Below, one piece after another: positions 4,087 to 28,408 of a DNA stretch of 64,000 bases. Each line of letters begins with the position of its first letter. Within the stretch, counting starts at the first letter, position 1. The translations under genes and the position numbers were made by a program. The notes below the pieces were generated by a model. It ran no database searches and was not told where the DNA came from. It worked only from the letters and a program-made list of their open reading frames with translations. The stretch spans positions 268,012 to 332,011 of the forward strand of contig CAVQKE010000005.1 of the NCBI GenBank assembly GCA_963713045.1. Direction: 5' to 3'. This DNA comes from an uncultured delta proteobacterium (GTDB lineage: Bacteria; Myxococcota; Myxococcia; Myxococcales; Myxococcaceae).

Positions 4087-4115
4087 CGTCGGGTGAGGGC
4101 GCCTCGCCCCACCCC

Positions 4116-5789: not shown

Positions 5790-5825
5790 AAGCGTCCGAC
5801 GCCCGTGTTAGCCGGGGTGGACCCT

Positions 5826-7010: not shown

Positions 7011-7255
7011 AACCTGGGGGCAAGCTGGTGGGGGGTGACAATGGTGAGGCGACGGCCTTCTGACAGTGCGGGACTGCCGCTTCCTGCAGCACGCGCACTC
7101 GGCCTTTTTTCCCAAGCGGTTAGCGGCCCATCGCCCGGGTTTTTCCACAACGCCGACGCCGCCGCTGGGTGACGCACAGCCTCGGCTTGACGCCCCCCTC
7201 GCCCTCCGGTACTGAGGGCCCCCTTTCCCACCTGACGGACTTCCCCGGAGCGGAC

Positions 7256-8013: not shown

Positions 8014-8020
8014 GGCGGTG

Positions 8021-10516
<2,496 letters not shown>

Positions 10517-13274: not shown

Positions 13275-15103
13275 CTACTTCATCTCGTCGATAATCTGCT
13301 TCAGCTCGGCCGGCATTTCTGGGCCAGGTTGACGGGCCACCTGCATCGTGCCGTCGCTTCCTTTGTGCACCACAATATTCACGGTGGCGAAGGCCGGGTC
13401 CTTGTCTGGAAAATCCTCGCGGAAGTGGCCGCCCCGGCTCTCCTTGCGCTCGATGGCCGCATGAGTGATGGCCTGGGAGACGGTGAGCAGGTTGCTTAGG
13501 TCGAGTGCGGTATGCCAGCCAGGGTTGTACTCGCGGTTGCTGGAAACGCCCACTCGGCGGGCGCGCTCCCATAGCCCATCGAGGCCTTGAAGTGCCTGCT
13601 TCATTTCCGTCTGCGTGCGAACGATTCCCACCCACTTCTGCATCACGTCTGGAGGTCATGCTGCATCTGGTAGGGACCTTCGCCGGCGGCGTTGGGACGT
13701 CCGAACGGTTCGAGCGAGCGACTGGCGGCCCGATCCTCGACTGCTGAGGCGTCAATCTGCCCCCGCCCATTCTGGCTTGCGCAAACTTGGCTGCATACTC
13801 TCCGGCGCGCTTGCCGAAGACCAGCAGGTCCGAAAGCGAATTTCCGCCCAGCCGGTTGGCGCCATGGAGTCCTGCGGCGCACTCGCCGGCAGCGAACAGG
13901 CCGGGAACGGTGGACATCTGGCTGTCGCCGTCCACCTTGATGCCGCCCATCATGTAGTGGGTGGTGGGTCCGACTTCCATCGGCGTGTTGGTGATGTCGA
14001 TGTCCGCCAGCTGTATGAACTGATGGTACATGCTGGGGAGCTTCTTGTTTGATGTGCTCCTCAGCGTTCGGAAGCTTTTCTTTGATCCACGAGATGTCGA
14101 GGAACACGCCCCCATGCGGGCTGCCGCGTCCTTCCTGATCTCGCGCACGATGCAGCGGGCGACGTGGTCGCTGGTGAGCAACTCGGGCGGGCGGCGCGCG
14201 TTCTTGTCCCCTTGCGTGTAGCGCCAGCCTTCTTCCTCGTTGTCTGCGGTCTGCGTGCGGTAGTTCGCCGGGATGTCTCGAACATGAAGCGGCTGCCTTC
14301 CTTGTTGCGCAGGACTCCGCCTTCGCCGCGCACGCCTTCCGTGACCAGGATCCCTGGACGCTCGGCGGCCAGACCATGCCCGTTGGGATGGAACTGGACG
14401 AACTCCATGTCCATCAGGTCGGCGCCAGCGTCGTAGGCGAGCGCCTGGCCGTCGCCGGTGTATTCCCAGCTATTGCTGGTGATCTTGTAGGCGCGGCCGA
14501 TGCCGCCCGGTGCGCGAGCACCACGGCCCGGGCGCGAAAGAGATGGAAGCGTCCGCGCTCGCGATCGTAGGCCGAACGCGCCCGCACCCGCGGTCGCCGT
14601 ACTTCGAGCAGAGCTGACGATGGTGCATTCCATGAGCACGTCAATCGCCCTGCTGAATGCCGTGGTCCTGCAGGGTACGAATCATCTCCAGCCCGGTGCG
14701 GTCGCCGACGTGCGCCAGGCGCGGGTAGCGTGCCCGCCGAAGTTGCGCTGCAGAATGCGGCCGTCGCGGAGTGCGATCGAAAACCGCGCCCCAGGCCTCC
14801 AGTTCACGGACCCGTTCTGGCGCCTCCCTGGCGTGCAGCTCCGCCATCCGCCAGTTGTTGACGTACTGGCCGCCGCGCATCGTGTCGGCGAAATGGACCT
14901 TCCAGCTGTCGCGGTCGTCGACGTTGGCCAGCGCCGCGGCGACGCCGCCCTCGGCCATCACGGTGTGGGCTTTGCCCAACAGCGACTTGCAGACCAGGCC
15001 CGACCTTGGCGCCGCCGGCCGACGCTTCGATGGCGGCCCGCAACCCGGCGCCGCCCGCGCCCACCACCAGCACATCATGCTCGTGGGTCTCGTACTCGGC
15101 CAT
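13275..15103 (-). pseudogene. sdhA: succinate dehydrogenase/fumarate reductase flavoprotein subunit, about 13 frame switches
   Basis: Canonical SdhA peptides are scattered over seven track ORFs in three frames: MAEYETHEHDVLVVGAGGAGLRAAIEAS (14804..15421), LVCKSLLGKAHTVMAEGG (14641..15078), GGIGRAYKITSNSWEYTGDG (14061..14639), AYDRERGRFHLF (14414..14644), EGRGSPHGGVFLDISWIKEK (13643..14377), GPTTHYMMGGIKVDG...AAGECAAGLHGANRLGGNSL (13036..14181), MMQKWVGIVRTQTEM...IIDEMK (13275..13646). Confidence 0.9.
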
Positions 15104-15913
15104 CAGAAGAACCTCCAGTCGTGCCAGATGCCCATCGAACAGAGCCGGATGTAGACGTCGGAGAAGGCCACCGAAAACAAGCTGGGCCACGCCCAGCGCA
15201 TGTGGCGGCTGTTCAGGCAGCTGACGCAGGCGTAGGCCTCTGTTGCGTATCGGGACGCTGCGAGAGCGGTTGAACTGCCCGCCGACCAGATGCCGCAGCG
15301 AATGGCAGCCCAGCGTGTACCCGCCAGCAGCACCACATTCACGGCCAACAGCAGACGTCCCGACGCCGACCCCGAAGAGGACTTGGCCGGTGGCGGGTCT
15401 GCGAACCAAAGCGCCTTCCACACGTCGTGCACGAGAATGAGGATGAAAAGGCCAACGCCAGGTAGAGGAAGTAGCGATGGACGTTTTGGAGGATCAGCGG
15501 AAAGCCGCACTCGCCGACGGTAGTGGCTGACGCGGCTCACCCACGGCGCAGGCCGGCGGGTCGGCCCAGAAGGCTTTGTAATAGGCGCCGCGGTAGTAGT
15601 AGCAGGTGAAGCGAAACCCGGCCGGGAACGGCGAGAATGAGAGCGCCGGCGAGAAAGGGCAGCCAGCCAGGCCAGGCGGCTGGCTTCGGGCCGAACCAGG
15701 CGTGGGTTGGGATCGCCGAACAGCTCTGGCGAGTAGAACGGCGACAGGTACGGCCCGAAGGGTAGTGGTTGCATTCTGAAACGCCGCCCAGGTGGCGTAG
15801 ACGATAAAGACAGTCAGCAGCACCAACACCACCGACGGCCACGCCCACCATGCGTCCCGGCGCACCGTCTGTGCGAAGCGCGGCGGAGTGGGGCGAAATG
15901 TTGCTTGGGTCAT
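15103..15913 (-). pseudogene. sdhC: succinate dehydrogenase/fumarate reductase cytochrome b subunit (b558-type), at least 9 frame switches
   Basis: ATG at 15913 (MTQATFRPTPPRFAQTVRRDAWWAWPSVVLVLLTVFIVYATWAAF). Later pieces PFGPYLSPFYSPELFG, FPAGFRFTCYYYRGAYYKAFW, GECGFPLILQNVHRYFLYLALAF, FILILVHDVWKALWF, YTLGCHSLRHLVGGQ and AYACVSCLNSRHMRWAW...WHDWRFF alternate among three frames. The stop overlaps the sdhA ATG (TGATG). Confidence 0.75.
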
Positions 15914-16330
15914 GCAACGCTCCCTTTCGGGTGGCGACATCCGAGGGGGCGGACCATAAGCTCGCTCGGCAACACGGGGCCAGGACCCAAAAACCCTGGC
16001 GCGCCCATCCGATGGGTCCAGCGCGCCGCGTCGTCGCCGCGGCACAGGACAGCTGCTGGCCTGGTGAAGCGCTGCTTTCGCCTCGCCGCGGGGTCCCGAC
16101 GCCGTCGTCAACCAACGACGAAAGTCTCCTCGCCAACGGGAAGTTGAACCGGAGGCGTAGCCGGATTGACGCCGGGAGAGGTACGCCGGTGCAAGGGTAC
16201 TGGCGCGCGTCCATCGCATTCCGAGGCGACTGCAAGTCGAGGGGCTTCCATCGACACTGGGCATCGGCGCCGCCGGGCGTGTGGACGAAGAGCTGCGCCT
16301 GAGGATATTCCTGGGCTCGAGGAGGGAGTG

Positions 16331-17498
16331 ATGACCCCACCAGACCACCAACAAGCAGTCGCCCGGACACGTGAGATTGCCGACGCGACGATTTCCCCCG
16401 CAGCGCACGACCATGACAGGGCTGGGAGCTTCCCAACCGACGCCGTAGCCGCACTCGGACAGGCCGGGCTGCTGGCGCTCAACGTCCCGACAACTTTCGG
16501 TGGCTCAGGCCTCGGCCCACGTGCCTTCGCGGAGGTCATGACCATCCTCGCCGAAGCGGACCCGTCGGTGGCGATGGTCTACATGATGCACGTTTGCGCA
16601 AGCGAGGTGATTATCGCTGGCGCCAAGACGACCGGCAGCCGGGCAGCCGATGCGGCGCTCAGGGACATGTCCCGGGGCAAACATCTCACCACCCTCGCCT
16701 TCAGCGAGGCCGGATTGCGCAGCCACTTCTGGGCGCCCATCTCCAAGGCTTCCCGCTCCGACGGCGGCGTTCGGCTGAACGCGAAGAAGTCCTGGGTAAC
16801 CAGCGCCGGGGTCGCAGACAGCTACGTCATCACCACACTCTCACCCGAGGCGAAGGGCAGCACCGACTCGACGCTGTACCTGGTTCCGGGGGTCTGCGGC
16901 CGGGATGCGCGTCGCGGCGCCCTGGGACGGCCTGGGCCTGCGGGCGACCGCATCGTCCCCAATGACGCTTGAGGCGGTGGAGGTCGGCGACGACCGCCGC
17001 CTCACCGAGGAGGGCGGCGGCTTCGCGGCCAAGCTGAACGTCGTGCTGCCCTGGTTCAACCTGGCCAGTGCCACCGTCTCCCTCGGCATCTGCCGCGCCG
17101 TGGTGGCGGCAACTGTGGCTCATCTGAAGACCAGCAAGTTCGAGCATCTGGGCAATACCTCGCTCGGCGAAGCGCTACCGACGCTGCGACAGAGGCTCGC
17201 CCAGATGCAGATTGACACCGATGGCCTCGCGCACCGAGTCGACGACTGCGTCGGCGCGCTGGAGACCCCCGGCCCGCTCACGATGCTCCGCGTCCTCGAG
17301 GTCAAGGCCGCTGCCGGGGAGACCGCCATCCGGGTCACCTCCAGCGCGATGCAGGCCTGCGGCGGCGCCGCCTTCTCCAAGCACACGTCCATCGAACGCT
17401 ACTTTCGTGATGCGCACGCTGGCTCGGTGATGGCGCCCACCGTGGACGTCCTCCGCGAGTTCATCGGAAAGTCGCTCCTCGGCATCCCGCTGTTCTGA
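16331..17498 (+). pseudogene. acyl-CoA dehydrogenase-fold flavoenzyme, single frameshift in a G5 run (may be a sequencing error)
   Basis: ATG at 16331 follows GGAGGGAG. The N-terminal half is in ORF 16166..16972 (...STLYLVPG) and the C-terminal half in ORF 16905..17498 (MRVAAPWDGLGLRATASSPMTLEAVEV...YFRDAHAGSVMAPT). They join at GGGGG 16888-16892. Confidence 0.8.
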
Positions 17499-17514
17499 GC
17501 ACTGAGCACTCTCC

Positions 17515-18336
17515 ATGCTCGAGACCATCAACCTGGGCGCCGTGGTTTACGACCCGAAGGTCATCGGGATTTGGGAGGGCATGCGGAGGTACTTCCGCGA
17601 CGAGGCGAAGGTCCCGGTCGAGGTCGTCCTGTACCTGGGCTACCCGGCTCAGGTGGCTGCGCTTCTTGCCGGACGCATCGACATCGCCTGGAACACCAAC
17701 CTCGCTTATTTGCAGTCGGACCACTTCAGTCAGGGCAAGTGCAGGCCGCTCGCGATGCGAGACACCGACCTCGAGTGGTGGACGGAGATTGTGGTTCGCA
17801 AAGGGGGTGGCGTCCGCCAGCTGTCGGACCTCCGCGGAAAGCGTGTCGCCCTCGGAAGCCGTGACAGCGGCCACGCGGCGATTCTTCCAGTGCACTTCCT
17901 CGCTCAGGCAGGCCTGGTCGAGGACCGGGACTACCAGTCGCTCCGCTTCGACAGCGACCTCGGGAAGCATGGAGACACCGGGACCAGCGAGGTCGACGTG
18001 CTCCGTGCCGTCCTCAACGGCGAAGCCGATGCGGGCGCGGTGGGTAGCCCCTTCTGGGCGGGCGTTCTCTCGGGCCAGCTCGTCCCGGCAGGAGCCGTGG
18101 AGTCCATCTGGTCGTCTCCGCGCTACCACCATTGCATGTTCACCGCGCGGGTCGGCCTTCCCACCGAGGATGCCACCCGCTTCACCGACGCGCTCTTCAG
18201 AATGAACGGCGACCCGCGCCTCCGACCCATCCTCGACGCCGAAGGCCTCAAAGAGTGGGTGTCCCCCCGCACTGAGGGCTACGGCTCGCTTCGCGAGGCA
18301 GCGCTCCAGCAGGGCTTCCTCGCGCGGTCGGGCTGA
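17515..18336 (+). CDS. PhnD/SsuA-like periplasmic-binding-protein-fold protein lacking a signal peptide (predicted cytoplasmic)
   Basis: 273 aa. LLAGRIDIAWNTNLAYLQ and LRGKRVALGSRDSGHAAILPVHFL resemble the phosphonate/sulfonate-type SBP fold. The N-terminus MLETINLGAVVYDP has no hydrophobic leader. Confidence 0.6.
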   Translation: MLETINLGAVVYDPKVIGIWEGMRRYFRDEAKVPVEVVLYLGYPAQVAALLAGRIDIAWNTNLAYLQSDHFSQGKCRPLAMRDTDLEWWTEIVVRKGGGVRQLSDLRGKRVALGSRDSGHAAILPVHFLAQAGLVEDRDYQSLRFDSDLGKHGDTGTSEVDVLRAVLNGEADAGAVGSPFWAGVLSGQLVPAGAVESIWSSPRYHHCMFTARVGLPTEDATRFTDALFRMNGDPRLRPILDAEGLKEWVSPRTEGYGSLREAALQQGFLARSG

Positions 18337-19368
18337 ATGGGCTCGCTGCGCCATAAGGCGGAGCTTCGAGCGGACGCGAAGGACTTCTCGAACGGCTTGC
18401 TGAACGACCTCCTCGCGGCGTTCCAGGGTTTGGCCGACGGCGACCTCCTCTCGCTGCTCGGTCCTGCGCGTCTCGGGCCCGACCTTGACCTCTGGGCTCG
18501 CTTCACCGGGAACGCAATCGTCGAGGTGACCAGCGAGGGTGAGACCAGCCGGTTCGTCGTCCGCAAGGGGCCGCTGCTTTCGTATGAGGAGGCGCCAGTC
18601 GTTGGGGAGCGGCTGTGGCTCTACACCAACTTCGATTGCAATCTCGCCTGTGACTATTGCTGCGTGCGCTCCTCACCGCGGGCGGATCCCCAGGCGCTCC
18701 CGCTTGAGGACATCCAGCGCGCTGCCTCCGAGGCGCCCGAGGCCGGCGTCCGTGAACTCTTCGTCACCGGAGGCGAGCCGTTCCTGCGCTCGGACATCGC
18801 CGAGATATTGCTGGCCTGTGGACGGGCTCTTCCGACGACCGTGCTCACCAACGGACTTCTCTTCGCCGGCAAGCGCCTGCGCGCCCTTCAAGAACTCCCC
18901 CGCGACCGTGTGGTCCTGCAGATTAGTCTCGACAGTCCCACCGCCGCGCTCCACGACCGGCATCGAGGAGCCGGGAGCTGGGAGAAGGCCCGGGCCGGCA
19001 TCGCCAGCGCCCGGGAGGAAGGCTTCCGCGTCCGGCTGGCCTCGACCGTGACCGACGCGCAGGCGGAGCAGGACTTCCAGGAGTTCGTCGAGCGGGAGGG
19101 TATTCCGAAGCAGGACTGCGTCGTGCGCCGAGTCGCCCTCCGCGGGTTCGCCGAGGAGGGCGTGGCCCTGTCGCGGTCGGACCTGGTTCCAGAGGTGACC
19201 TTCACCCGGGCGGGCGTCTACTGGCATCCCGTCGGGGCGACAGACCAGGACTTCTTCGTCACCGGTCGGTTTTTTCCTCTCGTCGAGGCAATCGAGGCAG
19301 TCAGGCGCGCCTTCGCCGAGGAGCGGCGCTTCGCCACCTCTGTGGCCAACGTGTTCCGCTGCGCCTAG
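18337..19368 (+). CDS. radical SAM enzyme with a ~95-aa N-terminal TusA-like extension
   Basis: The ATG directly abuts the upstream stop (TGAATG). CNLACDYC is the CxxxCxxC 4Fe-4S/SAM motif. FVTGGEPFL is the GGE-type SAM-binding motif. 343 aa. Confidence 0.8.
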   Translation: MGSLRHKAELRADAKDFSNGLLNDLLAAFQGLADGDLLSLLGPARLGPDLDLWARFTGNAIVEVTSEGETSRFVVRKGPLLSYEEAPVVGERLWLYTNFDCNLACDYCCVRSSPRADPQALPLEDIQRAASEAPEAGVRELFVTGGEPFLRSDIAEILLACGRALPTTVLTNGLLFAGKRLRALQELPRDRVVLQISLDSPTAALHDRHRGAGSWEKARAGIASAREEGFRVRLASTVTDAQAEQDFQEFVEREGIPKQDCVVRRVALRGFAEEGVALSRSDLVPEVTFTRAGVYWHPVGATDQDFFVTGRFFPLVEAIEAVRRAFAEERRFATSVANVFRCA

Positions 19369-19621
19369 AGCCCCTCCCTGCTTCAACCGCTGCTCCACGA
19401 TGACGGCTTCGAGCCGTTCGAGTCCGAACGCCGTCACCGGGAGCAGTCTCATCGGACAGACGGAGCCACCCACGCTTGACGTGGCAGGCCGGCGCGCGTT
19501 GGATGCCGTCGGCCTTTACCAGCCCGCCGCTGGCACGGCGGCTGCCGAGAGGCCGCCCGACCCATCGCATTCACCACCCGCATCTCGGAAACTCGAATGT
19601 CGAGTCGCCCAGGAGGGCCCC

Positions 19622-20359
19622 ATGATGAGAGCAGGCCGCGTTGCCGTGACGACTGCTGTATTCATCGGAATGCTTTGTCCAGCGACACCTGTGTCCGCGC
19701 AGCAGCTCCCGGCCATCGCCGAGCAGATTGCGAAGACCTATGGTCTCGACTCCTTTGGTCAAATCGAGGCCATCCGGTACACCTTCAACATCGATGTCGG
19801 TAAAGGAAAGTTCAAGGTCTCGCGTTCGTGGGTCTGGGAGCCGAAGGCGGACCGAATCTCATACGACGGAAAGGACAAGGCCGGTCTCCCCGTCAAGGTC
19901 ACTTACTCGCGCTCTGAGTTCGCAACTCAGAGCGCGTTCGTGAAGGAGGAAGTCGATCCGGCGTTTTTCAACGACCAATACTGGCTATTACTCCCGTTCC
20001 ATCTCGTCTGGGATACCAGCGCCACAGTTCAGGATGCCGGCATGCAGAAAGTCCCGCTTGGGAAAGGATCCGCCCGGAAGGTGGTGCTGAAGTATCCCTC
20101 GAACGTGGGCTACACGCCGGGTGACACCTGGGAACTTTACGTCGGCACCGACGACCGAATTCGGGACCTCGTCTTTCGTCACGGCGGTAGCACAAAGCCA
20201 AGTCTCGTCATTGCGACCTGGACTGAATATAAGAAGGCGGGACCGCTGCTCTTTTCACTGGATCACCGCGGAACGGCCGATGGCGCGCCGATGCGCGTTT
20301 TCTTCTCGAACGTGGCCGTCAAACTGGTGGGGTCCAGTACCTGGATAGAGGCCAAGTAA
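19622..20359 (+). CDS. hypothetical secreted protein
   Basis: ATG at 19622 inside track ORF 19400..20359. MMRAGRVAVTTAVFIGMLCPATPVSAQQ is a signal peptide. I recognise no motif. Visibly lower GC than its neighbours. Confidence 0.6.
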   Translation: MMRAGRVAVTTAVFIGMLCPATPVSAQQLPAIAEQIAKTYGLDSFGQIEAIRYTFNIDVGKGKFKVSRSWVWEPKADRISYDGKDKAGLPVKVTYSRSEFATQSAFVKEEVDPAFFNDQYWLLLPFHLVWDTSATVQDAGMQKVPLGKGSARKVVLKYPSNVGYTPGDTWELYVGTDDRIRDLVFRHGGSTKPSLVIATWTEYKKAGPLLFSLDHRGTADGAPMRVFFSNVAVKLVGSSTWIEAK

Positions 20360-20512
20360 AGCTGCTGGAGACATCTCGCCGCCGGAATTCGTCAGGGTGC
20401 TCCATAGGCCTGAACGTACTGCCCTCTACCATGCCCGGCGCAGACCGGCCGCCGATGCGCGTCGTGCCGGATACGCATCTGCCCAAGGCTGGCAGCGCCT
20501 GCACCGTCCTCG

Positions 20513-21832
20513 TCATGGAACGCTCCTCGACGACGGATTGAGGTCGGCGTCCAATCTCAAGCGCTTGCTTCGCCACAGCCAGAAGACAGCGCCGACCAGC
20601 GCTCCATACTCGACCAGAAGCGCCCAGCCAGGCACCGCCCATGGCACGCCGACGAGCCCCCACGCGCTGTAGGCGCTCAGGATGGATACCGTCCAAATCG
20701 TCAACGGCATCGTCGGCGGCGCGACCAGAAACGGCGTGAGCCAGAGGAGATACCAGGGGTAGACCAATGGCGCACAAACCAGCACTGCCGCCATCGGCCA
20801 CGCCCAGGCTTGCGGCGAAGCCAGCGAGAGCCGACGCCGCGCCCAAACGCCGACCGCCAAACCAACGGCAACTGCGAACCCGGTGGCCGCGGGCGGCCCT
20901 ACAAGCGAGGCGACACCCGAGAAGATTGGCCCGTTGAAGCGGAAACGATGAATTACTTCCGGAACAGACCCGATGGGCAGGCCGCGGTGGTCCCAGAACA
21001 GCACATAAAGCACCAGCAGCAAGGCGCCTGCGACGACGACATGGCGTCGCGAGACACGGCGCCACAGGAGCGGCAAGAGAACGATTGGAAGGGGCTTCAC
21101 TGCTACCGACAGCGCAAAGGCGACGCTCCCCACAAATTTCCGGCCGCGCGCGAGGGCAAACGCAGCGCAGGCGACGAGGAGCGCGCCGACCACGTCCACG
21201 TGCCCGTGACGGGCGACCTCGAGCGAGACGAGCGGGCTCCACAGGTACGCAAGCACCCAGCCGGGGTTTGCGCCGGCGGCGAGGAGCGAACGCCACACGA
21301 CAAACGCCAGCAGCGCGTCACAGAGCAGAACGGCTACCTTGATGCTCCGCGCTGATTCACTCAGCGTCGTCGCCGCGAGGAAGAAGAGCTGCGCGCCCGG
21401 AGGGTAGGGGCTCGGCACGTCGGGGTTGTTTACCGGCCAGTTCTCGCTGGTCCGCAGATGCGCGAATGCAGGGTCGGCCGGAACGACTGCATAAGGGCTG
21501 AGGCCCGCCCGGACGAGGTGCGCGTCCCATAGGTAGCGGCGCAAGTCAGCGTTAGGTTCGGGAGGCGTCAGCAGCATCGGCACCCGCCAGGCCAGCGCCA
21601 GGACGGCGCAGGCCAGCAGCATCCGCGCGGAAGGCCGTAGGCCGTTCGTCACCTGGTGCAGCGCTGCGAGGTAGCCGACCGCGGCCAGTGCGAGCAGAAC
21701 GAAGAACGCGGCCGAGCCGTCGGCCGGTCGAATCAGGCCGAAGGTGACGAGCGCCGAACCAACGATGGCGCCGCTGATGCACAGTCCATGGCTGGCGCGC
21801 ATCGGTCTCCTGGCGTCATCCGGCGCGCTCAT
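20513..21832 (-). CDS. polytopic GT-C-fold-like membrane glycosyltransferase (DUF2029/GT87- or PMT-like)
   Basis: More than 10 hydrophobic segments. The loop YPPGAQLFFLAA after the first helices is typical of polyprenyl-phosphate-sugar-dependent transferases. Start is ambiguous (21832 overlapping the upstream gene, or 21802). Confidence 0.55.
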   Translation of the reverse strand: MSAPDDARRPMRASHGLCISGAIVGSALVTFGLIRPADGSAAFFVLLALAAVGYLAALHQVTNGLRPSARMLLACAVLALAWRVPMLLTPPEPNADLRRYLWDAHLVRAGLSPYAVVPADPAFAHLRTSENWPVNNPDVPSPYPPGAQLFFLAATTLSESARSIKVAVLLCDALLAFVVWRSLLAAGANPGWVLAYLWSPLVSLEVARHGHVDVVGALLVACAAFALARGRKFVGSVAFALSVAVKPLPIVLLPLLWRRVSRRHVVVAGALLLVLYVLFWDHRGLPIGSVPEVIHRFRFNGPIFSGVASLVGPPAATGFAVAVGLAVGVWARRRLSLASPQAWAWPMAAVLVCAPLVYPWYLLWLTPFLVAPPTMPLTIWTVSILSAYSAWGLVGVPWAVPGWALLVEYGALVGAVFWLWRSKRLRLDADLNPSSRSVP

Positions 21833-22538
21833 CGTCGTGGTCGCCCCAACCCGGTCGCCACGATGCGAGGAGAGCGGCCGTGCGAGGCGCTCGCGCGGGT
21901 TCGATGCGTAGCTCGGCGGCGAGCCGGCGCAAATCCGCCGGCACGTCCACATCGTACGACGCTTCGGTGAAAGCCACCGGCAAGCCGAGTGTTCGCGCGT
22001 TCCCGAGCAGCGCATCGCGAGCATTCCCTGTGCCCAGCGGAGTCAACTCGAACAGGCGCGGGTGCATCGCCGACGCCCCGACAAGGTAGTAGCCGCCGTC
22101 CTCGGTCGGTCCCACCACCAACTCGTGGGTCTCCAGAAGCTGAAAGGCCGACTGTAGGGTGGCGAGGGGCAGGTGCGGACTGTCGCTGTCGACCGCAATC
22201 ACACGGCGGAACTCCGGGACGAAATGCTCGAAGGCCGAAACCAACGCGGCGCCGAGCCCGCTGCCGCGCTGGCCGACGACGTGTACCCTCGCCGGCAAGC
22301 GCGCTTGGATGTCGGCCACCTCCTCAGAAGGGCACATCACGGCCACGTGGACGCGAGAGAGTTTCTGCACCAGCGTCAACGTGTCGCGCAGCATGGCCTC
22401 GGCGAGCTGGACGACGTCGGCTGCCGGGTACGCGCCGGCCAGTCTCGTCTTGGCGAAACCTTCCCGGGGAGCCTTCGCCATGACCACGACGGCCCCACGC
22501 ATTTCTTTGGTTCGGCAATCGACACTGCTTCGGCTCAT
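21816..22538 (-). CDS. DUF2064 family nucleotidyl/glycosyl-transferase-like protein
   Basis: VVVMAKAPREGFAKTRLAGAY, VIAVDSDSPHLP and VVGPTEDGGYYLVGAS match my memory of the DUF2064 (TIGR04282-type) signature. The ATG overlaps the upstream stop (ATGA). Confidence 0.7.
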   Translation of the reverse strand: MSRSSVDCRTKEMRGAVVVMAKAPREGFAKTRLAGAYPAADVVQLAEAMLRDTLTLVQKLSRVHVAVMCPSEEVADIQARLPARVHVVGQRGSGLGAALVSAFEHFVPEFRRVIAVDSDSPHLPLATLQSAFQLLETHELVVGPTEDGGYYLVGASAMHPRLFELTPLGTGNARDALLGNARTLGLPVAFTEASYDVDVPADLRRLAAELRIEPARAPRTAALLASWRPGWGDHDDERAG

Positions 22539-23248
22539 TTCACGGGTCCGGGTTCGGTTCGACTCGTCGCCGCGCCGAGCCGGTTCTTCAGGATGCCCGC
22601 GAGGATGCACCAGGCGGCGCCGATCGAGCCTCGCACCGTTCCGCTAATCTTCGAAACGCCGATGCGCCGATGGTAGCTGACGGGGACCTCCGTCACTCTG
22701 TAGCCGCGCATCGCGCCGCGCGTCACCAACTCGACGGGCCAGCCGTAGGTCATCTCGCGTAAGTCGAGGGCCCGCAGCACTTCGGAGCGCGCGGCCCGGA
22801 ACGGCCCGAGATCCGTCAACGAGACACCGTACAGCAACTGGATCAACGTCGCCGCAAGGCGGTTCCCGAACACGGCGTGCCACGGCATCGCCCCTGGCTC
22901 AAGACCGCCGGCAAGTCGCGATCCGAGGACGATGTCTGCGGAACCTTCGCGGATCGGGTCGAGCAGACGCCCCAGCTCGCAAGGCCGGTCACTGTAATCC
23001 CCGTCGAGGAATACGACGGTGTCCGGTTCCTTCGCGGCTGCCAGGCCAGCCAGGCAGGCGCGACCGTATCCGCGACGTGGCTCGACGATGACACGCGCGC
23101 CACGCGCGGCTGCAATCTCCCGGGTCCCGTCAGTCGAGTCAGCATCGACGACCAGCACTTCCGTGACCAGGGACGCAGGAAGTTCGTCCAGGACGCGTGC
23201 GATGGACCCAGCCTCGTTGTAGGTGGGGATGACAACGCTGACTCGCAT
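22535..23248 (-). CDS. family 2 glycosyltransferase, Dpm1/GtrB-like polyprenyl-phosphate glycosyltransferase
   Basis: ATG at 23248 inside track ORF 22535..23422. MRVSVVIPTYNEAGSI, VLVVDADSTDGT and VFLDGDYSD (DxD) are GT2 motifs. Confidence 0.85.
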   Translation of the reverse strand: MRVSVVIPTYNEAGSIARVLDELPASLVTEVLVVDADSTDGTREIAAARGARVIVEPRRGYGRACLAGLAAAKEPDTVVFLDGDYSDRPCELGRLLDPIREGSADIVLGSRLAGGLEPGAMPWHAVFGNRLAATLIQLLYGVSLTDLGPFRAARSEVLRALDLREMTYGWPVELVTRGAMRGYRVTEVPVSYHRRIGVSKISGTVRGSIGAAWCILAGILKNRLGAATSRTEPGPVK

Positions 23249-23259
23249 CCGGAATCGAC

Positions 23260-23886
23260 CTATCCGAGGCGCCAACCCGGACGGCGGCGCGCGATCAGGC
23301 CGTCGAGGCCCCACCTGCGCCCGGAACGCACCGAGGCGAGGCTGAATGCGACGATGATGGGCATGCCCAGCTCCCATATCCAAGCGCTGCCGAATTCCGA
23401 CAGCCACAGGGTGAAGAGCCACGCTCCGGCGGCGGCCGCCGCGGCGCGGCTGGCCGCCCCCGCCACGAGGAGCACGCCAAGCCCGAGCTCGGTCGCAGCC
23501 TGGAGCGGCGCGGCGACCCGCGCGTTGGCTGCAGCCATGGACATGACGCTTTTCCAGACGCCGGGTGCGTGCCCATTCTTCAGGTAGTAGTCGATGACTC
23601 CCTGGTACCCAGCCGGTGTGTACGCGCCTTTCCCCAGGTTTTCGAAGAAAACCCAGACGAACATCGTGCCGAGGGCCACACGCAACACCGCCAGCGCGCG
23701 CTGCTCCCTGGAAGCATTGTTGTCCACAGGACCCCTCACTTTCCCAGTCGTTGCCTCGCCATTATAGCCCACAGGGTCCGCGGTCGAGACGAGCGGGATT
23801 CTTACTGTTCCAGCGGTGCCGGTGTGTTGACGGTCCAAGACCTGTGCGCCGACTCTGGCACTATTCTGCGTCGGCCACGGTGGCAC
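23260..23886 (-). CDS. DoxX-like small membrane protein, start uncertain
   Basis: Four hydrophobic segments beginning ALAVLRVALGTMFVWVFFENLGKG. The stop is 11 nt before the GT2 start. The track start is GTG at 23886. An alternative GTG at 23739 is closer to the first helix. Confidence 0.5.
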   Translation of the reverse strand: MPPWPTQNSARVGAQVLDRQHTGTAGTVRIPLVSTADPVGYNGEATTGKVRGPVDNNASREQRALAVLRVALGTMFVWVFFENLGKGAYTPAGYQGVIDYYLKNGHAPGVWKSVMSMAAANARVAAPLQAATELGLGVLLVAGAASRAAAAAAGAWLFTLWLSEFGSAWIWELGMPIIVAFSLASVRSGRRWGLDGLIARRRPGWRLG

Positions 23887-23948
23887 TCATGGTTGTTAGG
23901 CCAACGCGGGGGGGGGCCACGAGTTGAGAAGCACCTCCCTGCAACACC

Positions 23949-25016
23949 TTACTTCCTGGTTTGGATTGGCTCATCCAGGAAGCACTGGACCTCCCGCAAC
24001 AGCATCATCCGGTTTTTCTCCCGGTCCACCGTGTGTGTCCCCTCGCCCAACTCGATGTAACGCTTCGAGGGCGAGTTCACGAGCCGCACGAACAAGGACT
24101 GGGCCATATAGCTGGGCGTGATGTTGTCCCACTCGGCTTTGATGAGCAGGACTGGAACGCGGATGTCCTTGACGTCAAAGGGAATGGTTGCCCCACTTTC
24201 GTAGCGCATGACGTCGAAGAGGGCTCCATTGGGAGCCCGGAACACCGGAGGATGCTGCTGCCAACCCTCGGGGTCGGTGTCAAGCTGAGCCGAGGCCCAA
24301 GCGTCGAGCCACCCTTCTGGTATCAGGTCAGCCTTCTTGTCCTCCGGGACTCCCGCGAGCGCTTCGGCTCTGAGCTGTGCAGCTGTAAAGGAACTGTAGG
24401 CCCCGAACTGGCCAGCGGCAGGGGGCGCCATCGAAGGCGTCTGGCGAATCCAGAGGGGCCCATACAGAACCAGCTTGTTGACGTTGGTGTTGTTCTTTGC
24501 GGCGTACCACTGAGCGATGAAGGTTCCCCAGGACCATGCCAGCACATCGAGCTTGCCAATGCCTCGCCGGTGCTTGATGAACTCAACCACGGCGGCCACG
24601 TCCCGGACGGCCTCTTCCGTTGTCGCAACGGGCGCCGACTCAGCGGGGGGCAGACTCATCTGGGGCGGGCGCGTGGAGCGGCCGTAACCGCGGACATCCA
24701 TCAGGTAGACGTCGTAGCCATCGTCAGCAATGAAGTCCATCCACGAGAAGCCGCCGAGGCTCAGGTCGAAGGTGCTTTCCGAAGGGCCAACTGCTCCATG
24801 GATGAAGAGCACGGTCTTTGTTGCTTCGAAACTCGTCATCGTCGATGGGTGCTTATTCCGGACAAAGATGTCGATTCCAGGGTCGCTGTGGACCTTGAAC
24901 TCCTCCATTGCCAGGCTGGTACCCGGGTTGGGCGGTGTCGCAGCCTCCGCAGCAGAATAGGCGAGCAGAAGGCCCATCAGATTTACGCCCAACTGTAGAA
25001 TTAACGACGAGTGCAT
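23949..25016 (-). CDS. secreted alpha/beta-hydrolase
   Basis: ATG at 25016 (MHSSLILQLGVNLMGLLLAYSAAEAA signal). Nucleophile elbow AWSWG. YLMDVRGYGRS is typical of the fold. Confidence 0.75.
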   Translation of the reverse strand: MHSSLILQLGVNLMGLLLAYSAAEAATPPNPGTSLAMEEFKVHSDPGIDIFVRNKHPSTMTSFEATKTVLFIHGAVGPSESTFDLSLGGFSWMDFIADDGYDVYLMDVRGYGRSTRPPQMSLPPAESAPVATTEEAVRDVAAVVEFIKHRRGIGKLDVLAWSWGTFIAQWYAAKNNTNVNKLVLYGPLWIRQTPSMAPPAAGQFGAYSSFTAAQLRAEALAGVPEDKKADLIPEGWLDAWASAQLDTDPEGWQQHPPVFRAPNGALFDVMRYESGATIPFDVKDIRVPVLLIKAEWDNITPSYMAQSLFVRLVNSPSKRYIELGEGTHTVDREKNRMMLLREVQCFLDEPIQTRK

Positions 25017-25426
25017 GAGGCCCTCTCCGCTATTCTCGGCCTTGAGGTGGCGGCCGCCGGACCTCACATGGTGAGTGTCGCCGACCCCGCCGTCACAATG
25101 GTGACGTGACAGCAGAGGGGCTTAACCGCGGACATAGAGCCTCGGCAACACGCCGTTGTCAGGGTTAGCGATGCCATCCGGGTCGGCCTCAGCCACCTGG
25201 AGGCTCTTGGGCGTCTGGAACTCCCACAGCTGAGATGCAGGCAGGAAGCCCACAGACACGTGGTCCAAATGGCCTTCTTTAGCAGCAGTTGGTCGCGGCG
25301 AAGAGTGACTCAGGTGAAGTGGGCTTGCTCGGCCCGGCATCGGTGGGTGGCCCCCTCGCCCATGCAGAAGACTGCTTCTGGCGAGGGAACATCAAGAGGC
25401 TACCAAAATCAGCGTGACTTCAGTTC

Positions 25427-26308
25427 CTACTTGGTTCGGATAAATCCGAAGGTAGCTCCGGCCGAGTTTACATAGAAGCCGACGATGGTACCCGAAGGAT
25501 TAATCCCGGATGCGCCAGTGCCCTGACCGGAGCTTGTGCCGGCGTCCGGTGCTTCGAAGGTCGTGAAAACGCCCTTGCTGAGGATGAAAGCGCCGGCGAC
25601 GCCGTTGGCGTCGGCGTATTGGCCTACGACATCGCCCTCGGCGTTACCACCTCCAGCAAACGTGAATACCGCACCTGGAACGTCAATGGTGGTGTACGTC
25701 CCGTGGTCAAGCACGTACCCATGAGAGTTTCCGGCACTATCAATGTAAAAACCGACGACTTTGCCGGAAGGGCTAACAGTACTGGCCGCACTGCTGATTG
25801 CCCCGGGTGGGTCGAAGCTCGTAAAGACGCCCTTTTTAGAGAGTACAAAACTGTGGGTGATCGTGTTGCAGAGGGGCGCGTCACAGGATTCTCCTGAGAT
25901 TTCACCCGATGGACTGATACCAGTCAGAATGGTGCCGGCCGCCCCTGGGAAGTCGCACGTTGTGTATGTTCCCTCATTCAGAACAAAACCGCGGCTGATG
26001 CCCGACGCATCCAGATAACCGCCAACAATCACTCCCTCCGGATTGATAAAGTTAGGAGTCGTAAACGCGGAACCCGGAGGATCGAACGACGTGAATGTGC
26101 CCCCTTTCGTCAACGTGAAGCCGTGAGTGACGCCAGAGGTGTCGGTATAATCACCGACGCTCGTGCCTTCTGGATTGGGGCCGCCGGTTAAAATGGTGGT
26201 CACCGCACCAGGAAATTGGACGGTCGTAAACTCTTGTGCCGACGCAGCCGACGGTACAAACGAGACGCTGATCGGCAAAACGACAAAGAAGCGAAGTATT
26301 TTGTGCAT
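25427..26308 (-). CDS. secreted six-repeat (~44 aa unit) beta-propeller-like protein, HAF-repeat-like
   Basis: ATG at 26308 (MHKILRFFVVLPISVSFVPSAASAQE). Six units of the pattern FT(T/S)FD.PGA...T...GI.P.G.(I/V)VG.Y.D..G..HGF(V/L)L..G. Confidence 0.7.
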   Translation of the reverse strand: MHKILRFFVVLPISVSFVPSAASAQEFTTVQFPGAVTTILTGGPNPEGTSVGDYTDTSGVTHGFTLTKGGTFTSFDPPGSAFTTPNFINPEGVIVGGYLDASGISRGFVLNEGTYTTCDFPGAAGTILTGISPSGEISGESCDAPLCNTITHSFVLSKKGVFTSFDPPGAISSAASTVSPSGKVVGFYIDSAGNSHGYVLDHGTYTTIDVPGAVFTFAGGGNAEGDVVGQYADANGVAGAFILSKGVFTTFEAPDAGTSSGQGTGASGINPSGTIVGFYVNSAGATFGFIRTK

Positions 26309-26580
26309 GCGAAGCTCCTTTCCCCGCATCGAGAACGCGTCCGAAACCTGTGCGCGTTCGGTAAGAACCGTGAAAAGCTTTCAAGAGTGCATCTCATCGC
26401 AATGCAATCGGCACCCCGAGCCGAGGAAGGTGCGCGATGTGGGTTCCCCTGTTGGTCTCTAAATTTCGGCTCAGTTAGACCGCCACCTGGCGTCCTAAGT
26501 GCCATGAAGGGTACGGTTCGTTTGGTCCATCGCCTAGGTCCAATTCATGGCAAGTTGATTGGACCAAGGGGAGCCCCGCA

Positions 26581-28089: not shown

Positions 28090-28408
28090 ATGGGCACAGC
28101 GCCGAAACCACCAAGACGAACCGACCGCGAGGAAGGTGGATTGGTACCCAGTCTGAGCGTTGCGGCGCACAAGCGACTCACGATTCCACACTCATCACAA
28201 TTGGTGGTTTACCCGCTTCACTCCCCTCCGGTGTGACAAGGTGCAGCGAGACTTTGCAATGGATTCTTCGGACTGTTTCGGGGGGCCGAGATGCTTTCGG
28301 GTCTCAGGCAGTAGGAATGGTTGACCCCTTGCGACGAGCGGGGGTTCGGGCTGTGCGAAACCAGAATGCTTCGGGCGTGTAGTTTCCCGCCCTGGTGGAG
28401 GGGACCGC

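What the first reader, a model, noticed from the sequence alone, without database searches (positions are those of the whole stretch)
16331..19368. Tightly coupled operon: ACAD-fold flavoenzyme, cytoplasmic PhnD/SsuA-like binding-fold protein, radical SAM enzyme
The three genes share a strand with gaps of 16 nt and 0 nt (TGAATG). The middle protein has a periplasmic-binding-protein fold of the phosphonate/sulfonate type but no signal peptide, so it is more likely a cytoplasmic ligand-binding or enzyme-like module than a transporter component. ACAD-fold proteins next to SsuA/PhnD-like genes are often flavin monooxygenases of organosulfur metabolism (DszC/SfnB type) rather than true acyl-CoA dehydrogenases. 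I know of no characterised pathway that combines these with a radical SAM enzyme. This is a candidate small-molecule tailoring or C-S/C-P-bond chemistry cassette.
Basis: inference. Interest (0 to 1): 0.6.

Follow-up and report, generated by a model that had tools for sequence, protein, structure and literature searches.

The report
Radical-SAM cassette tied to glycan capping
The three genes are this soil bacterium's copy of the uncharacterised Rv1679-Rv1680-Rv1681 cassette of Mycobacterium tuberculosis, and across five phyla it sits beside genes that attach an unusual sugar to the cell envelope, which gives the cassette its first testable function.

Summary
The trio is at the stated coordinates: an ACAD-fold flavoprotein, a PhnD-like protein with no signal peptide, and a radical SAM enzyme, with gaps of 16 and 0 nt. 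The ACAD gene is split by one extra G at 16888. An independent assembly that is otherwise identical over 13.6 kb lacks that G, so it is most likely an assembly error.

All three proteins best match the NCBIfam families named after M. tuberculosis Rv1679 (FadE16), Rv1680 and Rv1681 (MoeX). I found no paper on their function.

In 37 loci with full flanks from five phyla, the radical SAM gene lies near the other two genes in 34-35. It lies near DUF2064, GT2 and GT-C genes in 32-34, and near a LolA/LprG-like secreted protein and a DoxX-like membrane protein in 25 each. Gene order is shuffled but membership is constant. In the window this eight-gene module spans 16331-23727.

The glycosyltransferase block resembles the MtxS/MtxT system that caps mycobacterial lipoarabinomannan with methylthioxylose. 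Related clusters add MTA phosphorylase, a GalE-like epimerase and ArsM-like methyltransferases.

Elsewhere a di-iron oxidase with the same Cys-less TusA-like N-domain replaces the radical SAM enzyme. An earlier follow-up in this scan had already reported that counterpart on other DNA.

Best reading: the cassette makes or tailors a 5'-deoxyadenosine-derived pentose for envelope glycosylation. The substrate is unknown.

The parts
16331..17498 (+). ACAD-fold flavoprotein of the Rv1679/FadE16 type, 388 aa once the extra G is discounted. The canonical catalytic Glu is replaced by Ala368 (codon 17433-17435).
   Evidence: Pfam Acyl-CoA_dh_N/M/1. NCBIfam NF049984 scores 401.4 bits on the intact L011 copy against a cut-off of 600; the next family scores 117. 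Alignment to PDB 1ws9/3nf4 places Ala opposite the catalytic Glu. VMAPT is invariant in 59 family members.
16888..16892 (+). Run of five G holding one extra base that splits the ACAD reading frame. Probably an assembly error.
   Evidence: This is the only gap against G021 and G005 within the gene. It is also the only difference from Logan contig L011 over 13.6 kb.
17515..18336 (+). Cytoplasmic SBP-like protein of the Rv1680 type (PhnD/PtxB fold), 273 aa, no signal peptide. Many polar residues are invariant: MRDxD, DSGH, GKHGD, HCxFT and EGL.
   Evidence: Pfam Phosphonate-bd at 133 bits. NCBIfam NF049985 at 308 bits against a cut-off of 400; the next family scores 95. Conservation. The nearest solved structures are only remote PhnD/PtxB relatives.
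18337..19368 (+). Rv1681/MoeX-family radical SAM enzyme, 343 aa. It has a Cys-less TusA-like N-domain (about nt 18364-18570) and CNLACDYC at residues 101-108 (nt 18637-18660). Cys109, Cys161 and Cys342 are also invariant, and the protein ends in Cys-Ala. There is no SPASM or twitch cluster.
   Evidence: NCBIfam NF049973 at 416.5 bits, above the cut-off of 380. Invariant residues. hhalign of the N-domain against the N-domain of the di-iron partner gives Prob 95%, E 3.8e-8. AF2 model with mean pLDDT 76; top Foldseek matches include BlsE, MoaA, viperins, AbmM and DesII, alongside the peptide maturases SkfB and SuiB.
19622..20359 (+). Secreted 245-aa protein with a LolA/LolB/LprG/LppX-like fold. 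It is a conserved module member and a candidate periplasmic carrier for a lipid or lipoglycan.
   Evidence: Hydrophobic N-terminus at residues 7-27. No Pfam family. AF2 mean pLDDT 87. Foldseek matches DUF1329, LolA3, LolB and LprG at E 7e-7 to 4e-4. Present in 25 of 37 full-flank loci.
20513..21802 (-). Polytopic GT-C glycosyltransferase (GT87/MptB-like), 429 aa.
   Evidence: Pfam GT87 at 29 bits, above the cut-off of 25. MptA_B_family in the precomputed table. About 10 hydrophobic segments. Present in 33 of 37 loci.
21816..22538 (-). DUF2064 / CofC-like transferase of the TIGR04282 family, 240 aa.
   Evidence: TIGR04282 at 142.6 bits, above the cut-off of 134. Pfam DUF2064 at 86.7 bits. Present in 34 of 37 loci.
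22535..23248 (-). GT2 glycosyltransferase of the polyprenyl-phosphate-sugar synthase type (Dpm1/AglJ/PpgS-like), 237 aa.
   Evidence: Pfam Glycos_transf_2 at 89.8 bits. The best NCBIfam hits are AglJ at 137 bits, dolichyl-phosphate hexose transferase at 104 and PpgS at 57, all below their cut-offs. Present in 32 of 37 loci.
23260..23727 (-). Small four-helix DoxX/DoxD-like membrane protein, 155 aa.
   Evidence: Pfam DoxX at 22.5 bits, just under the cut-off. Hydrophobic segments. Full-length match at 24% identity, E 3e-5, to the DoxD-like gene two genes upstream of an actinobacterial Rv1679 orthologue. Present in 25 of 37 loci, and a 212-aa DoxD-like protein takes its place in 5 more.

Best explanation
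Shown: the trio is the local copy of the Rv1679-Rv1680-Rv1681 cassette. It consists of a flavoprotein without the acyl-CoA dehydrogenase base, a cytoplasmic SBP-like protein, and a radical SAM enzyme with a TusA-like N-domain. It belongs to an eight-gene module (16331-23727) whose membership is conserved across five phyla while gene order is shuffled. The other five genes are a GT2 of the polyprenyl-phosphate-sugar synthase type, a DUF2064 transferase, a GT-C transferase, a DoxX-like membrane protein and a LolA/LprG-like secreted protein.

Inferred: the module makes an unusual pentofuranose and attaches it to an envelope glycoconjugate. The model is methylthioxylose capping of mycobacterial lipoarabinomannan, where methylthioadenosine is converted to decaprenyl-P-MTX by MtxS and transferred by the GT-C enzyme MtxT. 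The cassette would be the cytoplasmic chemistry arm. The radical SAM enzyme would either transfer its 5'-deoxyadenosyl radical onto a small anionic substrate held by the SBP-like protein, as ArsS does in arsenosugar synthesis, or abstract a hydrogen from the nucleoside-derived sugar phosphate. The flavoprotein would do the accompanying two-electron redox step, possibly passing electrons to quinone through the DoxX-like protein. GT2 and DUF2064 would then load the sugar onto polyprenyl phosphate, and the GT-C enzyme would transfer it outside the cytoplasm, with the LolA-like protein handling the lipid-linked product. The substrate is not identified.
For: Family identity.

Conserved module: among 37 loci with full 8-kb flanks from Myxococcota, Acidobacteriota, Alpha- and Gammaproteobacteria and Verrucomicrobiota, the counts are rSAM 36, PBP 35, ACAD 34, DUF2064 34, GT-C 33, GT2 32, sec245 25 and DoxX-like 25, in at least three different gene orders. 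Genomes with trio-only loci carry DUF2064 and GT2 elsewhere. In G044, DUF2064, GT87 and sec245 sit together at a second site.

Actinobacterial genomes: in genome G377 the three cassette proteins pass all three NCBIfam cut-offs. Upstream of that trio lie a GalE-like epimerase and then a DoxD-like membrane protein, with GT2 and DUF2064 4 kb away. In G246, DUF2064, GT2 and MTA phosphorylase lie 13 kb from the trio.

Related cluster in G029, same order as the window's organism: an Rv1681-related rSAM lies with two ArsM-like methyltransferases, MTA phosphorylase, GT2, DUF2064, a GalE-like epimerase and a DUF2079 membrane protein.

Own genome: MTA phosphorylase lies next to a DUF2064::GT2 fusion at a second locus.

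Literature: MtxS (Rv0539) makes the lipid-linked MTX donor, MtxT (Rv0541c) is the GT-C transferase, and the pathway starts from 5'-methylthioadenosine (PMC12088412, PMC8780516, PMC11127046).

Structure: sec245 has the LolA/LprG fold. The top Foldseek matches of the rSAM model include enzymes that act on nucleosides, nucleotides or nucleotide sugars (BlsE, MoaA, viperins, AbmM, DesII), mixed with the peptide maturases SkfB and SuiB.
Against: No enzyme of the cassette has been assayed, and I found no paper on it.

The window's module holds no nucleoside phosphorylase and no epimerase.

In M. tuberculosis (from memory) Rv1679-81 and Rv0539-41c are far apart, and MTX synthesis is described without Rv1679-81.

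The di-iron version of the trio (15 of 15 loci) has no glycosylation genes nearby. A di-iron enzyme cannot transfer an adenosyl group, so the cassette's core chemistry may be independent of glycosylation.

I could not show direct homology of the window's GT2, DUF2064 and GT-C to Rv0539-Rv0541c, because the M. tuberculosis genome could not be reached. The actinobacterial membrane proteins next to DUF2064 show no significant similarity to the window's GT-C.
Confidence: 0.45

Rival explanations
1. A stand-alone redox cassette that acts on a small sulfur, selenium or phosphorus oxyanion or organo-compound. The SBP-like protein holds the substrate. The flavoprotein and the radical or di-iron enzyme oxidise it or cleave a C-S or C-P bond. 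The glycosylation genes are neighbours only for regulatory or historical reasons.
For: The trio occurs alone in the di-iron version in 15 of 15 loci and in several rSAM loci. After its own family, the SBP-like protein scores best against a putative selenate binder, phosphite/phosphonate binders and SsuA. The ACAD-fold protein's next-best families include SfnB, 3-sulfinopropanoyl-CoA desulfinase and DszC. The TusA-like domain and the DoxX/DoxD-like partner are both sulfur-flavoured. LysR regulators lie next to some di-iron cassettes.
Against: No transporter or starvation regulator is conserved with it. The rSAM version is linked to DUF2064, GT2 and GT-C in 32-34 of 37 loci with shuffled order, and Rv1681-related rSAMs that lack the ACAD and SBP partners are still linked to that block. 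The second-best family scores are only at the general superfamily level.
Confidence: 0.2
2. An arsenosugar-type pathway for arsenic or another metalloid. The radical SAM enzyme would be a functional ArsS analogue, adenosylating a trivalent metalloid bound by its three extra cysteines. DUF2064 and GT2 would be the 'arsenosugar glycosyltransferases'.
For: The DUF2064 protein passes the TIGR04282 cut-off. Three non-cluster cysteines are invariant. The G029 relative is clustered with two ArsM-like methyltransferases.
Against: The enzyme is not an ArsS family member. TIGR04167 is not among its 25 best NCBIfam families, and the genome has no ArsS above cut-off. No ArsM or ars resistance genes lie in the module. 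The ArsM-linked relative lacks the three cysteines and the TusA-like domain. The module is very widespread in ordinary soil Acidobacteriota.
Confidence: 0.1
3. A molybdenum-cofactor enzyme, as the name MoeX suggests. The radical SAM protein would be a MoaA-like GTP cyclase.
For: MoaA models are among the weak secondary hits at 62-68 bits, and MoaA appears among the structural neighbours.
Against: The scores are far below the MoaA cut-offs of 284-325 bits. There is no C-terminal auxiliary-cluster cysteine triad, only Cys109, Cys161 and Cys342. No moaC, moaB or moaD lies nearby. The partners are a flavoprotein and an SBP-like protein.
Confidence: 0.02
4. A decaying pseudogene cluster: the frameshift in the ACAD-fold gene is real and the cassette is being lost in this lineage.
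For: There is a one-base insertion in the window. The G005 relative has a different one-base insertion in its SBP-like gene. The cassette is patchy among relatives, in 3 of 41 genomes.
Against: An independent assembly of run ERR11571144 has the intact gene and is otherwise identical over 13.6 kb. Both indels lie in contiguous MAG assemblies (7 and 9 contigs). The same window has a dense indel patch in essential sdh genes, with 30 gaps in 1.3 kb against L011. The ACAD protein is 89% identical to its closest relative's copy, while the trio's DNA is about 85% identical to the two genome relatives.
Confidence: 0.08

Closest known systems
Rv1678-Rv1679 (FadE16)-Rv1680-Rv1681 (MoeX) cassette of Mycobacterium tuberculosis (NCBIfam NF049986, NF049984, NF049985, NF049973)
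   Same: The three protein families are the same, in the same order and on the same strand (ACAD, then SBP-like, then rSAM), as seen in actinobacterial loci L120-L123. The rSAM passes the family cut-off. A DoxX/DoxD-like membrane protein accompanies the cassette in both settings.
   Different: The window's ACAD and SBP-like proteins score below the curated equivalog cut-offs (401 against 600, and 308 against 400). No Rv1678_C domain was found in this genome. Here the cassette is physically joined to a DUF2064/GT2/GT-C block. The function of the mycobacterial cassette is itself unknown.
Methylthioxylose (MTX) capping pathway of mycobacterial lipoarabinomannan: MtxS (Rv0539, GT2), MtxT (Rv0541c, GT-C), starting from 5'-methylthioadenosine (Angala et al. 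2017, as cited in PMC11127046, PMC8780516 and PMC12088412)
   Same: Both have a GT2 of the polyprenyl-phosphate-sugar synthase type plus a GT-C transferase. A DUF2064 gene lies between or beside them; that Rv0540 is DUF2064 is from my memory only. Related clusters found here add MTA phosphorylase and a GalE-like epimerase.
   Different: The window's module has no phosphorylase or epimerase. Instead it carries the rSAM/flavoprotein/SBP-like cassette and a LolA-like protein. Direct homology to the M. tuberculosis genes was not tested. The sugar and the acceptor are unknown.
Arsenosugar biosynthesis set: ArsM + ArsS (radical SAM, TIGR04167) + TIGR04282 + TIGR04283
   Same: Both are triads of a radical SAM enzyme, a DUF2064 transferase and a GT2. 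The window's DUF2064 protein passes the TIGR04282 cut-off.
   Different: The radical SAM enzyme belongs to a different family. There is no ArsM. The GT2 looks like the membrane-associated polyprenyl-phosphate type rather than TIGR04283 (50 bits against a cut-off of 182). A GT-C enzyme is present.
Di-iron counterpart cassette (ACAD-fold, then SBP-like, then TusA-like::ferritin-like di-iron oxidase)
   Same: The flavoprotein is 44-49% identical and the SBP-like protein 37-41% identical. The gene order is the same, and the third protein has a homologous N-terminal TusA-like domain.
   Different: The catalytic domain of the third protein is an oxygen-dependent di-iron carboxylate fold instead of radical SAM. 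No glycosylation genes are conserved nearby.

Membership tests
Rv1681 family radical SAM protein (NF049973) | Whole-protein score at or above the curated cut-off of 380 bits | tested here: met
   416.5 bits; 416.3 bits in the genome search.
Rv1681 family radical SAM protein (NF049973) | CX3CX2C cluster motif and the family's invariant C-terminal features | tested here: met
   C101, C105 and C108, plus invariant C109, C161 and the terminal Cys-Ala, in 61 aligned members.
Rv1680 family SBP-like protein (NF049985) | Score at or above the curated cut-off of 400 bits | tested here: not met
   308 bits. This is by far the best family; the next scores 95 bits. An actinobacterial orthologue scores 494.
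Rv1679 family acyl-CoA dehydrogenase (NF049984) | Score at or above the curated cut-off of 600 bits | tested here: not met
   401.4 bits for the intact copy on L011; the next family scores 117. An actinobacterial orthologue scores 655.
Canonical acyl-CoA dehydrogenase (alpha,beta-dehydrogenation) | Catalytic glutamate at the MCAD-type (YEG) or IVD-type position | tested here: not met
   Ala368 aligns with the Glu of IGEGT/IFEGT in 1ws9 and 3nf4, and VMAPT is invariant in the family. A conserved Phe sits at the IVD-type position; I placed that position from knowledge of IVD Glu254.
Periplasmic PhnD/PtxB substrate-binding protein of an ABC transporter | Signal peptide or lipobox, with adjacent permease and ATPase genes | tested here: not met
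   The protein begins at the first conserved strand. No ABC genes are conserved with it. The Pfam Phosphonate-bd fold itself is met.
MoaA GTP 3',8-cyclase | Family score above cut-off, and a C-terminal auxiliary [4Fe-4S] cysteine triad | tested here: not met
   62-68 bits against cut-offs of 284-325. There are only three scattered extra cysteines.
ArsS arsenosugar radical SAM (TIGR04167) | Family score above 300 bits | tested here: not met
   TIGR04167 is not among the 25 best NCBIfam families of this protein. The best TIGR04167 matches in the genome score 74 bits and lie elsewhere.
TIGR04282 (DUF2064, 'arsenosugar biosynthesis glycosyltransferase') | Score at or above the cut-off of 134 bits | tested here: met
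   142.6 bits for window 21816-22538.
MTX-type lipid-linked pentofuranose capping system (MtxS/MtxT) | GT2 polyprenyl-phosphate-sugar synthase plus a GT-C transferase in one cluster | tested here: inconclusive
   GT2 and GT87-like GT-C are adjacent. The GT2 resembles AglJ, Dol-P-hexose synthase and PpgS below their cut-offs. No MtxS or MtxT model was among the NCBIfam hits.
MTX-type lipid-linked pentofuranose capping system (MtxS/MtxT) | MTA phosphorylase and an epimerase in the cluster | tested here: not met
   Both are absent from the window's module. MTA phosphorylase lies about 250 kb upstream on the same contig, beside a DUF2064::GT2 fusion. Both are present in the related clusters of G029, G246 and G377.
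MTX-type lipid-linked pentofuranose capping system (MtxS/MtxT) | Sequence homology to Rv0539, Rv0540 and Rv0541c | not testable with these tools
   A pattern scan for the M. tuberculosis genome found nothing, and the primary paper is not held.

The most novel reading that the evidence does not exclude
The Rv1681-type enzyme is a radical adenosyl transferase, in the manner of ArsS, HpnH and MqnE. It would form a new C5'-heteroatom bond (C-S, C-Se, C-P or C-As) between 5'-deoxyadenosine and a small anion delivered by the cytoplasmic SBP-like protein and prepared by the flavoprotein. After loss of adenine, the resulting 5-deoxy-5-X-pentose would be loaded onto polyprenyl phosphate and displayed as a cap on envelope glycans. 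That would be a family of MTX-like sugars spread across soil bacteria and mycobacteria.
Probability: 0.2. Interest if true: 0.85.

Novelty: new variant of a known kind. Interest (0 to 1): 0.62.

Why it matters
Rv1679-Rv1681 (FadE16, Rv1680, MoeX) is a conserved but functionally blank cassette in M. tuberculosis. MoeX is known only as an antigen found in patients' urine.

The cassette travels with an MtxS/MtxT-like glycosylation block, MTA phosphorylase, epimerases and a LolA/LprG-like carrier in five phyla. This turns "unknown" into a concrete and testable idea: the cassette supplies or tailors an adenosine-derived sugar for the cell envelope.

It also suggests that methylthioxylose-like capping, so far described only for lipoarabinomannan (PMC11127046 says it is unclear whether it exists elsewhere), is one case of a widespread soil-bacterial strategy.

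The exchange of a radical SAM domain for a di-iron domain behind the same TusA-like domain is a clean natural experiment for working out the chemistry.

Tried and rejected
I used an independent Logan contig instead.
- Riboswitch or other RNA element upstream: Rfam at gathering thresholds found nothing in the window or in five related loci, apart from one tRNA-Sec in L034.
- That tRNA-Sec as a selenium clue: it occurs in only 1 of 60 loci, so I rejected it as coincidence.
- Promoter and terminator scan around the trio: nothing above the shuffled expectation.
- Inverted repeats at the ends of the segment that is inverted relative to G021 and G005 (window 19.6-23.7 kb): none convincing.
- Fetching the M. 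tuberculosis genome with a remembered dnaA-start pattern: no match.
- A sample of 150 Actinomycetota genomes had no Rv1681 match above cut-off. A class-level sample of 400 had 16.
- Papers: nothing functional on Rv1679, Rv1680 or Rv1681. Angala 2017 and two related papers are not held.
- MoaA/Moco and ArsS membership: tested and rejected (see the membership table).
- GtrA-like flippase for the 155-aa protein: rejected in favour of DoxX/DoxD-like.
- Similarity between the window's GT-C and the polytopic membrane proteins next to actinobacterial DUF2064-GT2: none significant.
- Pocket analysis of the SBP-like protein: I did not fold it, because the tools return no coordinates. I used residue conservation only.

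Full report
**1. Observation**

The + strand between 16331 and 19368 holds three abutting coding regions:
- an ACAD-fold gene at 16331..17498
- a PhnD-like gene at 17515..18336, after a 16-nt gap
- a radical SAM gene at 18337..19368, joined as TGAATG

Pfam confirms the three folds.

The first gene is not one ORF in the window. Its 1168 nt change frame inside a run of five G at 16888-16892. Aligning the trio with its two closest genome relatives, G021 and G005 (85% DNA identity), shows that this single G is the only gap inside the gene.

A Logan contig from run ERR11571144 carries the identical radical SAM protein (L011). It matches window 15783-29368 base for base except for that G, and it encodes an intact 388-aa protein. 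I therefore read the frameshift as a homopolymer error of the assembly.

Three further points fit an assembly error. G005 carries a different one-base insertion in its SBP-like gene. The window shows 104 mismatches and 30 gaps against L011 in the sdh genes just upstream. The closest named relatives are long-contig soil MAGs.

**2. What the three proteins are**

All three find their best NCBIfam family, by a wide margin, in models named after one M. tuberculosis gene string.

| Protein | NCBIfam family | Score (bits) | Cut-off | Next-best family |
|---|---|---|---|---|
| ACAD-fold (intact copy) | NF049984, Rv1679/FadE16 | 401 | 600 | 117 |
| SBP-like | NF049985, Rv1680 | 308 | 400 | 95 |
| Radical SAM | NF049973, Rv1681 | 416.5 | 380 | 68 |

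- **Flavoprotein.** It lacks the acyl-CoA dehydrogenase base. Ala368 in an invariant VMAPT motif aligns with the Glu of IGEGT. A conserved Phe sits where isovaleryl-CoA dehydrogenase has its alternative Glu.
- **SBP-like protein.** It has no signal peptide. It carries an unusually dense set of invariant polar residues (MRDxD, DSGH, GKHGD, HCxFT, EGL). That looks more like an active or metal site than a plain binding pocket, but this is inference.
- **Radical SAM enzyme.** It has a Cys-less TusA-like N-domain, the motif CNLxCDYC, three further invariant cysteines (109, 161, 342), an invariant C-terminal Cys-Ala, and no SPASM or twitch cluster.
- **Structures.** None of the three has a close relative of solved structure. 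An AlphaFold model of the enzyme (pLDDT 76) finds BlsE, SkfB, MoaA, SuiB, viperins, AbmM and DesII as top neighbours. Many of these act on nucleosides, nucleotides or nucleotide sugars.
- **Literature.** I found no functional paper on Rv1679-81. One structure-based annotation calls Rv1680 a putative phosphonate transporter component (PMC8562490).

**3. The trio is part of a larger conserved module**

An alignment of family members retrieved 80 loci from Myxococcota, many Acidobacteriota, Alpha- and Gammaproteobacteria and Verrucomicrobiota. I ran tblastn with the window's proteins and an all-against-all clustering of ORFs on these loci.

Counts among the 37 loci with full 8-kb flanks:

| Gene | Loci (of 37) |
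|---|---|
| rSAM | 36 |
| SBP-like | 35 |
| ACAD | 34 |
| DUF2064 | 34 |
| GT-C | 33 |
| GT2 | 32 |
| 245-aa secreted protein | 25 |
| small DoxX-like membrane protein | 25 |

A 212-aa DoxD-like protein replaces the DoxX-like protein in five more loci. No other family is widely shared.

The order differs between lineages:
- Window type: ACAD, SBP, rSAM in one direction.
- Most Acidobacteriota: DoxX, GT2, DUF2064, GT-C, sec245, rSAM in one direction, converging on SBP and ACAD.
- Pyrinomonadaceae: a third order.

Constant membership with shuffled order is the classic signature of a functional link.

In the window the extra genes lie at 19622-23727. The block from sec245 to the DoxX-like gene is inverted relative to G021 and G005. 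At least one other MAG (L015) shares the window's arrangement.

Annotations of the extra genes:
- The DUF2064 protein passes the TIGR04282 cut-off.
- The GT2 resembles archaeal and mycobacterial polyprenyl-phosphate-sugar synthases.
- The GT-C is GT87/MptB-like.
- The secreted protein folds with pLDDT 87 into a LolA/LolB/LprG/LppX-like half-barrel.

Among 41 relatives of the window's genome, only three carry the Rv1681-family gene above cut-off. The module is therefore accessory and patchy.

**4. Links to methylthioadenosine-type sugar pathways**

In M. tuberculosis, MtxS (Rv0539, a GT2) makes decaprenyl-phospho-methylthioxylose. MtxT (Rv0541c, a GT-C) transfers it to lipoarabinomannan caps, and the pathway starts from 5'-methylthioadenosine (PMC12088412, PMC8780516, PMC11127046). 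From memory only, the gene between them (Rv0540) is DUF2064-like, and an MTA phosphorylase and a GalE-like epimerase belong to the same cluster.

Several results here fit that picture:
- **G377 (actinobacterial).** All three cassette proteins pass the NCBIfam cut-offs (655, 494 and 513 bits). A GalE-like epimerase, a DoxD-like membrane protein and a small Rv1678_C membrane protein lie directly upstream. GT2 and DUF2064 lie 4 kb away.
- **G246.** DUF2064, GT2 and a bona fide MTA phosphorylase form a string 13 kb from the trio.
- **G371.** GT2 and DUF2064 lie 18 kb from the trio.
- **G029, same order as the window's organism.** An Rv1681-related radical SAM gene scores 274 bits and lacks the TusA-like domain and the extra cysteines. 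It converges on a DUF2079 membrane protein, a GalE-like epimerase, DUF2064, GT2 and MTA phosphorylase, and it is preceded by two ArsM-like methyltransferases.
- **The window's own genome.** It has a second DUF2064, fused to a GT2, next to MTA phosphorylase.
- **Genomes whose trio stands alone.** They carry DUF2064 and GT2 elsewhere. In G044, DUF2064 lies with GT87 and sec245.

So DUF2064 plus GT2 recur with enzymes that produce 5-deoxy-5-substituted ribose-1-phosphate, and Rv1681-clade enzymes recur with that set.

**5. The radical SAM / di-iron swap**

Some relatives carry ACAD and SBP-like paralogues (44-49% and about 40% identity) without the radical SAM gene. There the third gene encodes a 430-480-aa protein with an N-terminal TusA-like domain and a ferritin-like di-iron domain. 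The di-iron domain has the motifs ENETAAL, DEARH, GEGSF and QDEARH, and gives weak hits to MiaE, AurF, R2lox and VlmB.

All 15 loci retrieved with this protein, from Myxococcota and several actinomycete genera, have the order ACAD, SBP-like, di-iron. They share no other conserved neighbour. Profile comparison shows that the two N-domains are homologous (Prob 95%, E 3.8e-8).

After I had found this, a look-up showed that an earlier follow-up in this scan had reached the same conclusion starting from the di-iron side on other DNA (e1-1376541).

The swap can be read in two ways:
- The shared step is a hydrogen abstraction or oxidation, done with or without oxygen.
- The flavoprotein, the SBP-like protein and the TusA-like domain handle a common small substrate whose fate differs. 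The radical SAM enzyme would adenosylate it and the di-iron enzyme would oxidise it.

**6. Mechanism proposed**

I consider the following shown:
- the cassette's identity
- the conserved eight-gene module
- the loss of the dehydrogenase base
- the cytoplasmic location of the SBP-like protein
- the LolA-like fold of sec245
- the domain swap

The rest is inferred. The cassette would be the cytoplasmic chemistry arm of a pathway that ends with a polyprenyl-phosphate-linked unusual pentose being transferred by the GT-C to an envelope glycoconjugate. The LolA/LprG-like protein would handle the lipid-linked product. The DoxX-like protein may take electrons from the flavoprotein to quinone.

I put the coupled-pathway reading at about 0.45. 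The specific adenosyl-transfer version, which would form a new C5'-heteroatom bond, I put at about 0.2.

The main rival is a self-contained sulfur, selenium or phosphorus redox cassette. The di-iron version and the sulfur-flavoured secondary similarities keep it alive.

**7. Novelty**

The trio is a known but uncharacterised family set. The glycosylation logic is known from MTX and arsenosugar work. I found no description of their union, of the extra LolA-like and DoxX-like members, or of the phylogenetic breadth. I class the module as a new variant of a known kind.

Noticed in passing
window 14454-15782 (sdh genes, minus strand): Against the independent contig L011, this stretch has 104 mismatches and 30 gaps in about 1.3 kb. 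The next 13.6 kb are identical except for one base. L011 has clean ORFs here (the SdhA N-terminus and a 267-aa protein), while the window's frames are broken. This is a local low-quality or mixed-strain patch of the assembly.
   Followed up: partly
L009 about 7936 (G005, same genus): The SBP-like gene of the closest same-genus relative has its own one-base insertion (an extra C) that splits the ORF. This is another likely homopolymer error in a long-contig MAG.
   Followed up: partly
window 19578-23715: The whole block from sec245 to the DoxX-like gene is inverted relative to G021 and G005, where DoxX, GT2, DUF2064 and GT-C follow the rSAM on the same strand. Synteny upstream of 16281 is also lost. 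No inverted repeats mark the breakpoints.
   Followed up: partly
G000 contig C5, 17200-20533 (L129 6189-9533), about 250 kb upstream of the window: A second DUF2064 copy is fused to a GT2 domain (467 aa). It converges on an MTA phosphorylase (285.6 bits, above cut-off) and a Pyr_redox_2 flavoprotein. This looks like a separate MTX- or arsenosugar-like mini-cluster in the same genome.
   Followed up: partly
L010 (G029) 2141-9956: A cluster of a DUF2079 membrane protein, a GalE-like epimerase, DUF2064, GT2 and MTA phosphorylase converges on an Rv1681-related radical SAM gene and two ArsM-like methyltransferases. It is a candidate pathway for a methylated-metalloid or chalcogen sugar.
   Followed up: partly
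L034 3470-3567: A tRNA-Sec gene lies immediately upstream of the module in one Acidobacteriaceae MAG. It was not seen in the other 59 loci scanned, so it is probably coincidence.
   Followed up: yes
L092 3396-7071 (G016): One ACAD + SBP-like pair lacks any third partner. It lies next to an FMO-like monooxygenase, a short-chain dehydrogenase and a LysR regulator, which hints at yet another context for the pair.
   Followed up: no
window 23949-25016 and 25427-26308 (minus strand): Downstream of the module lie an alpha/beta hydrolase and a 293-aa protein with no family hit. They are not conserved with the module.
   Followed up: no
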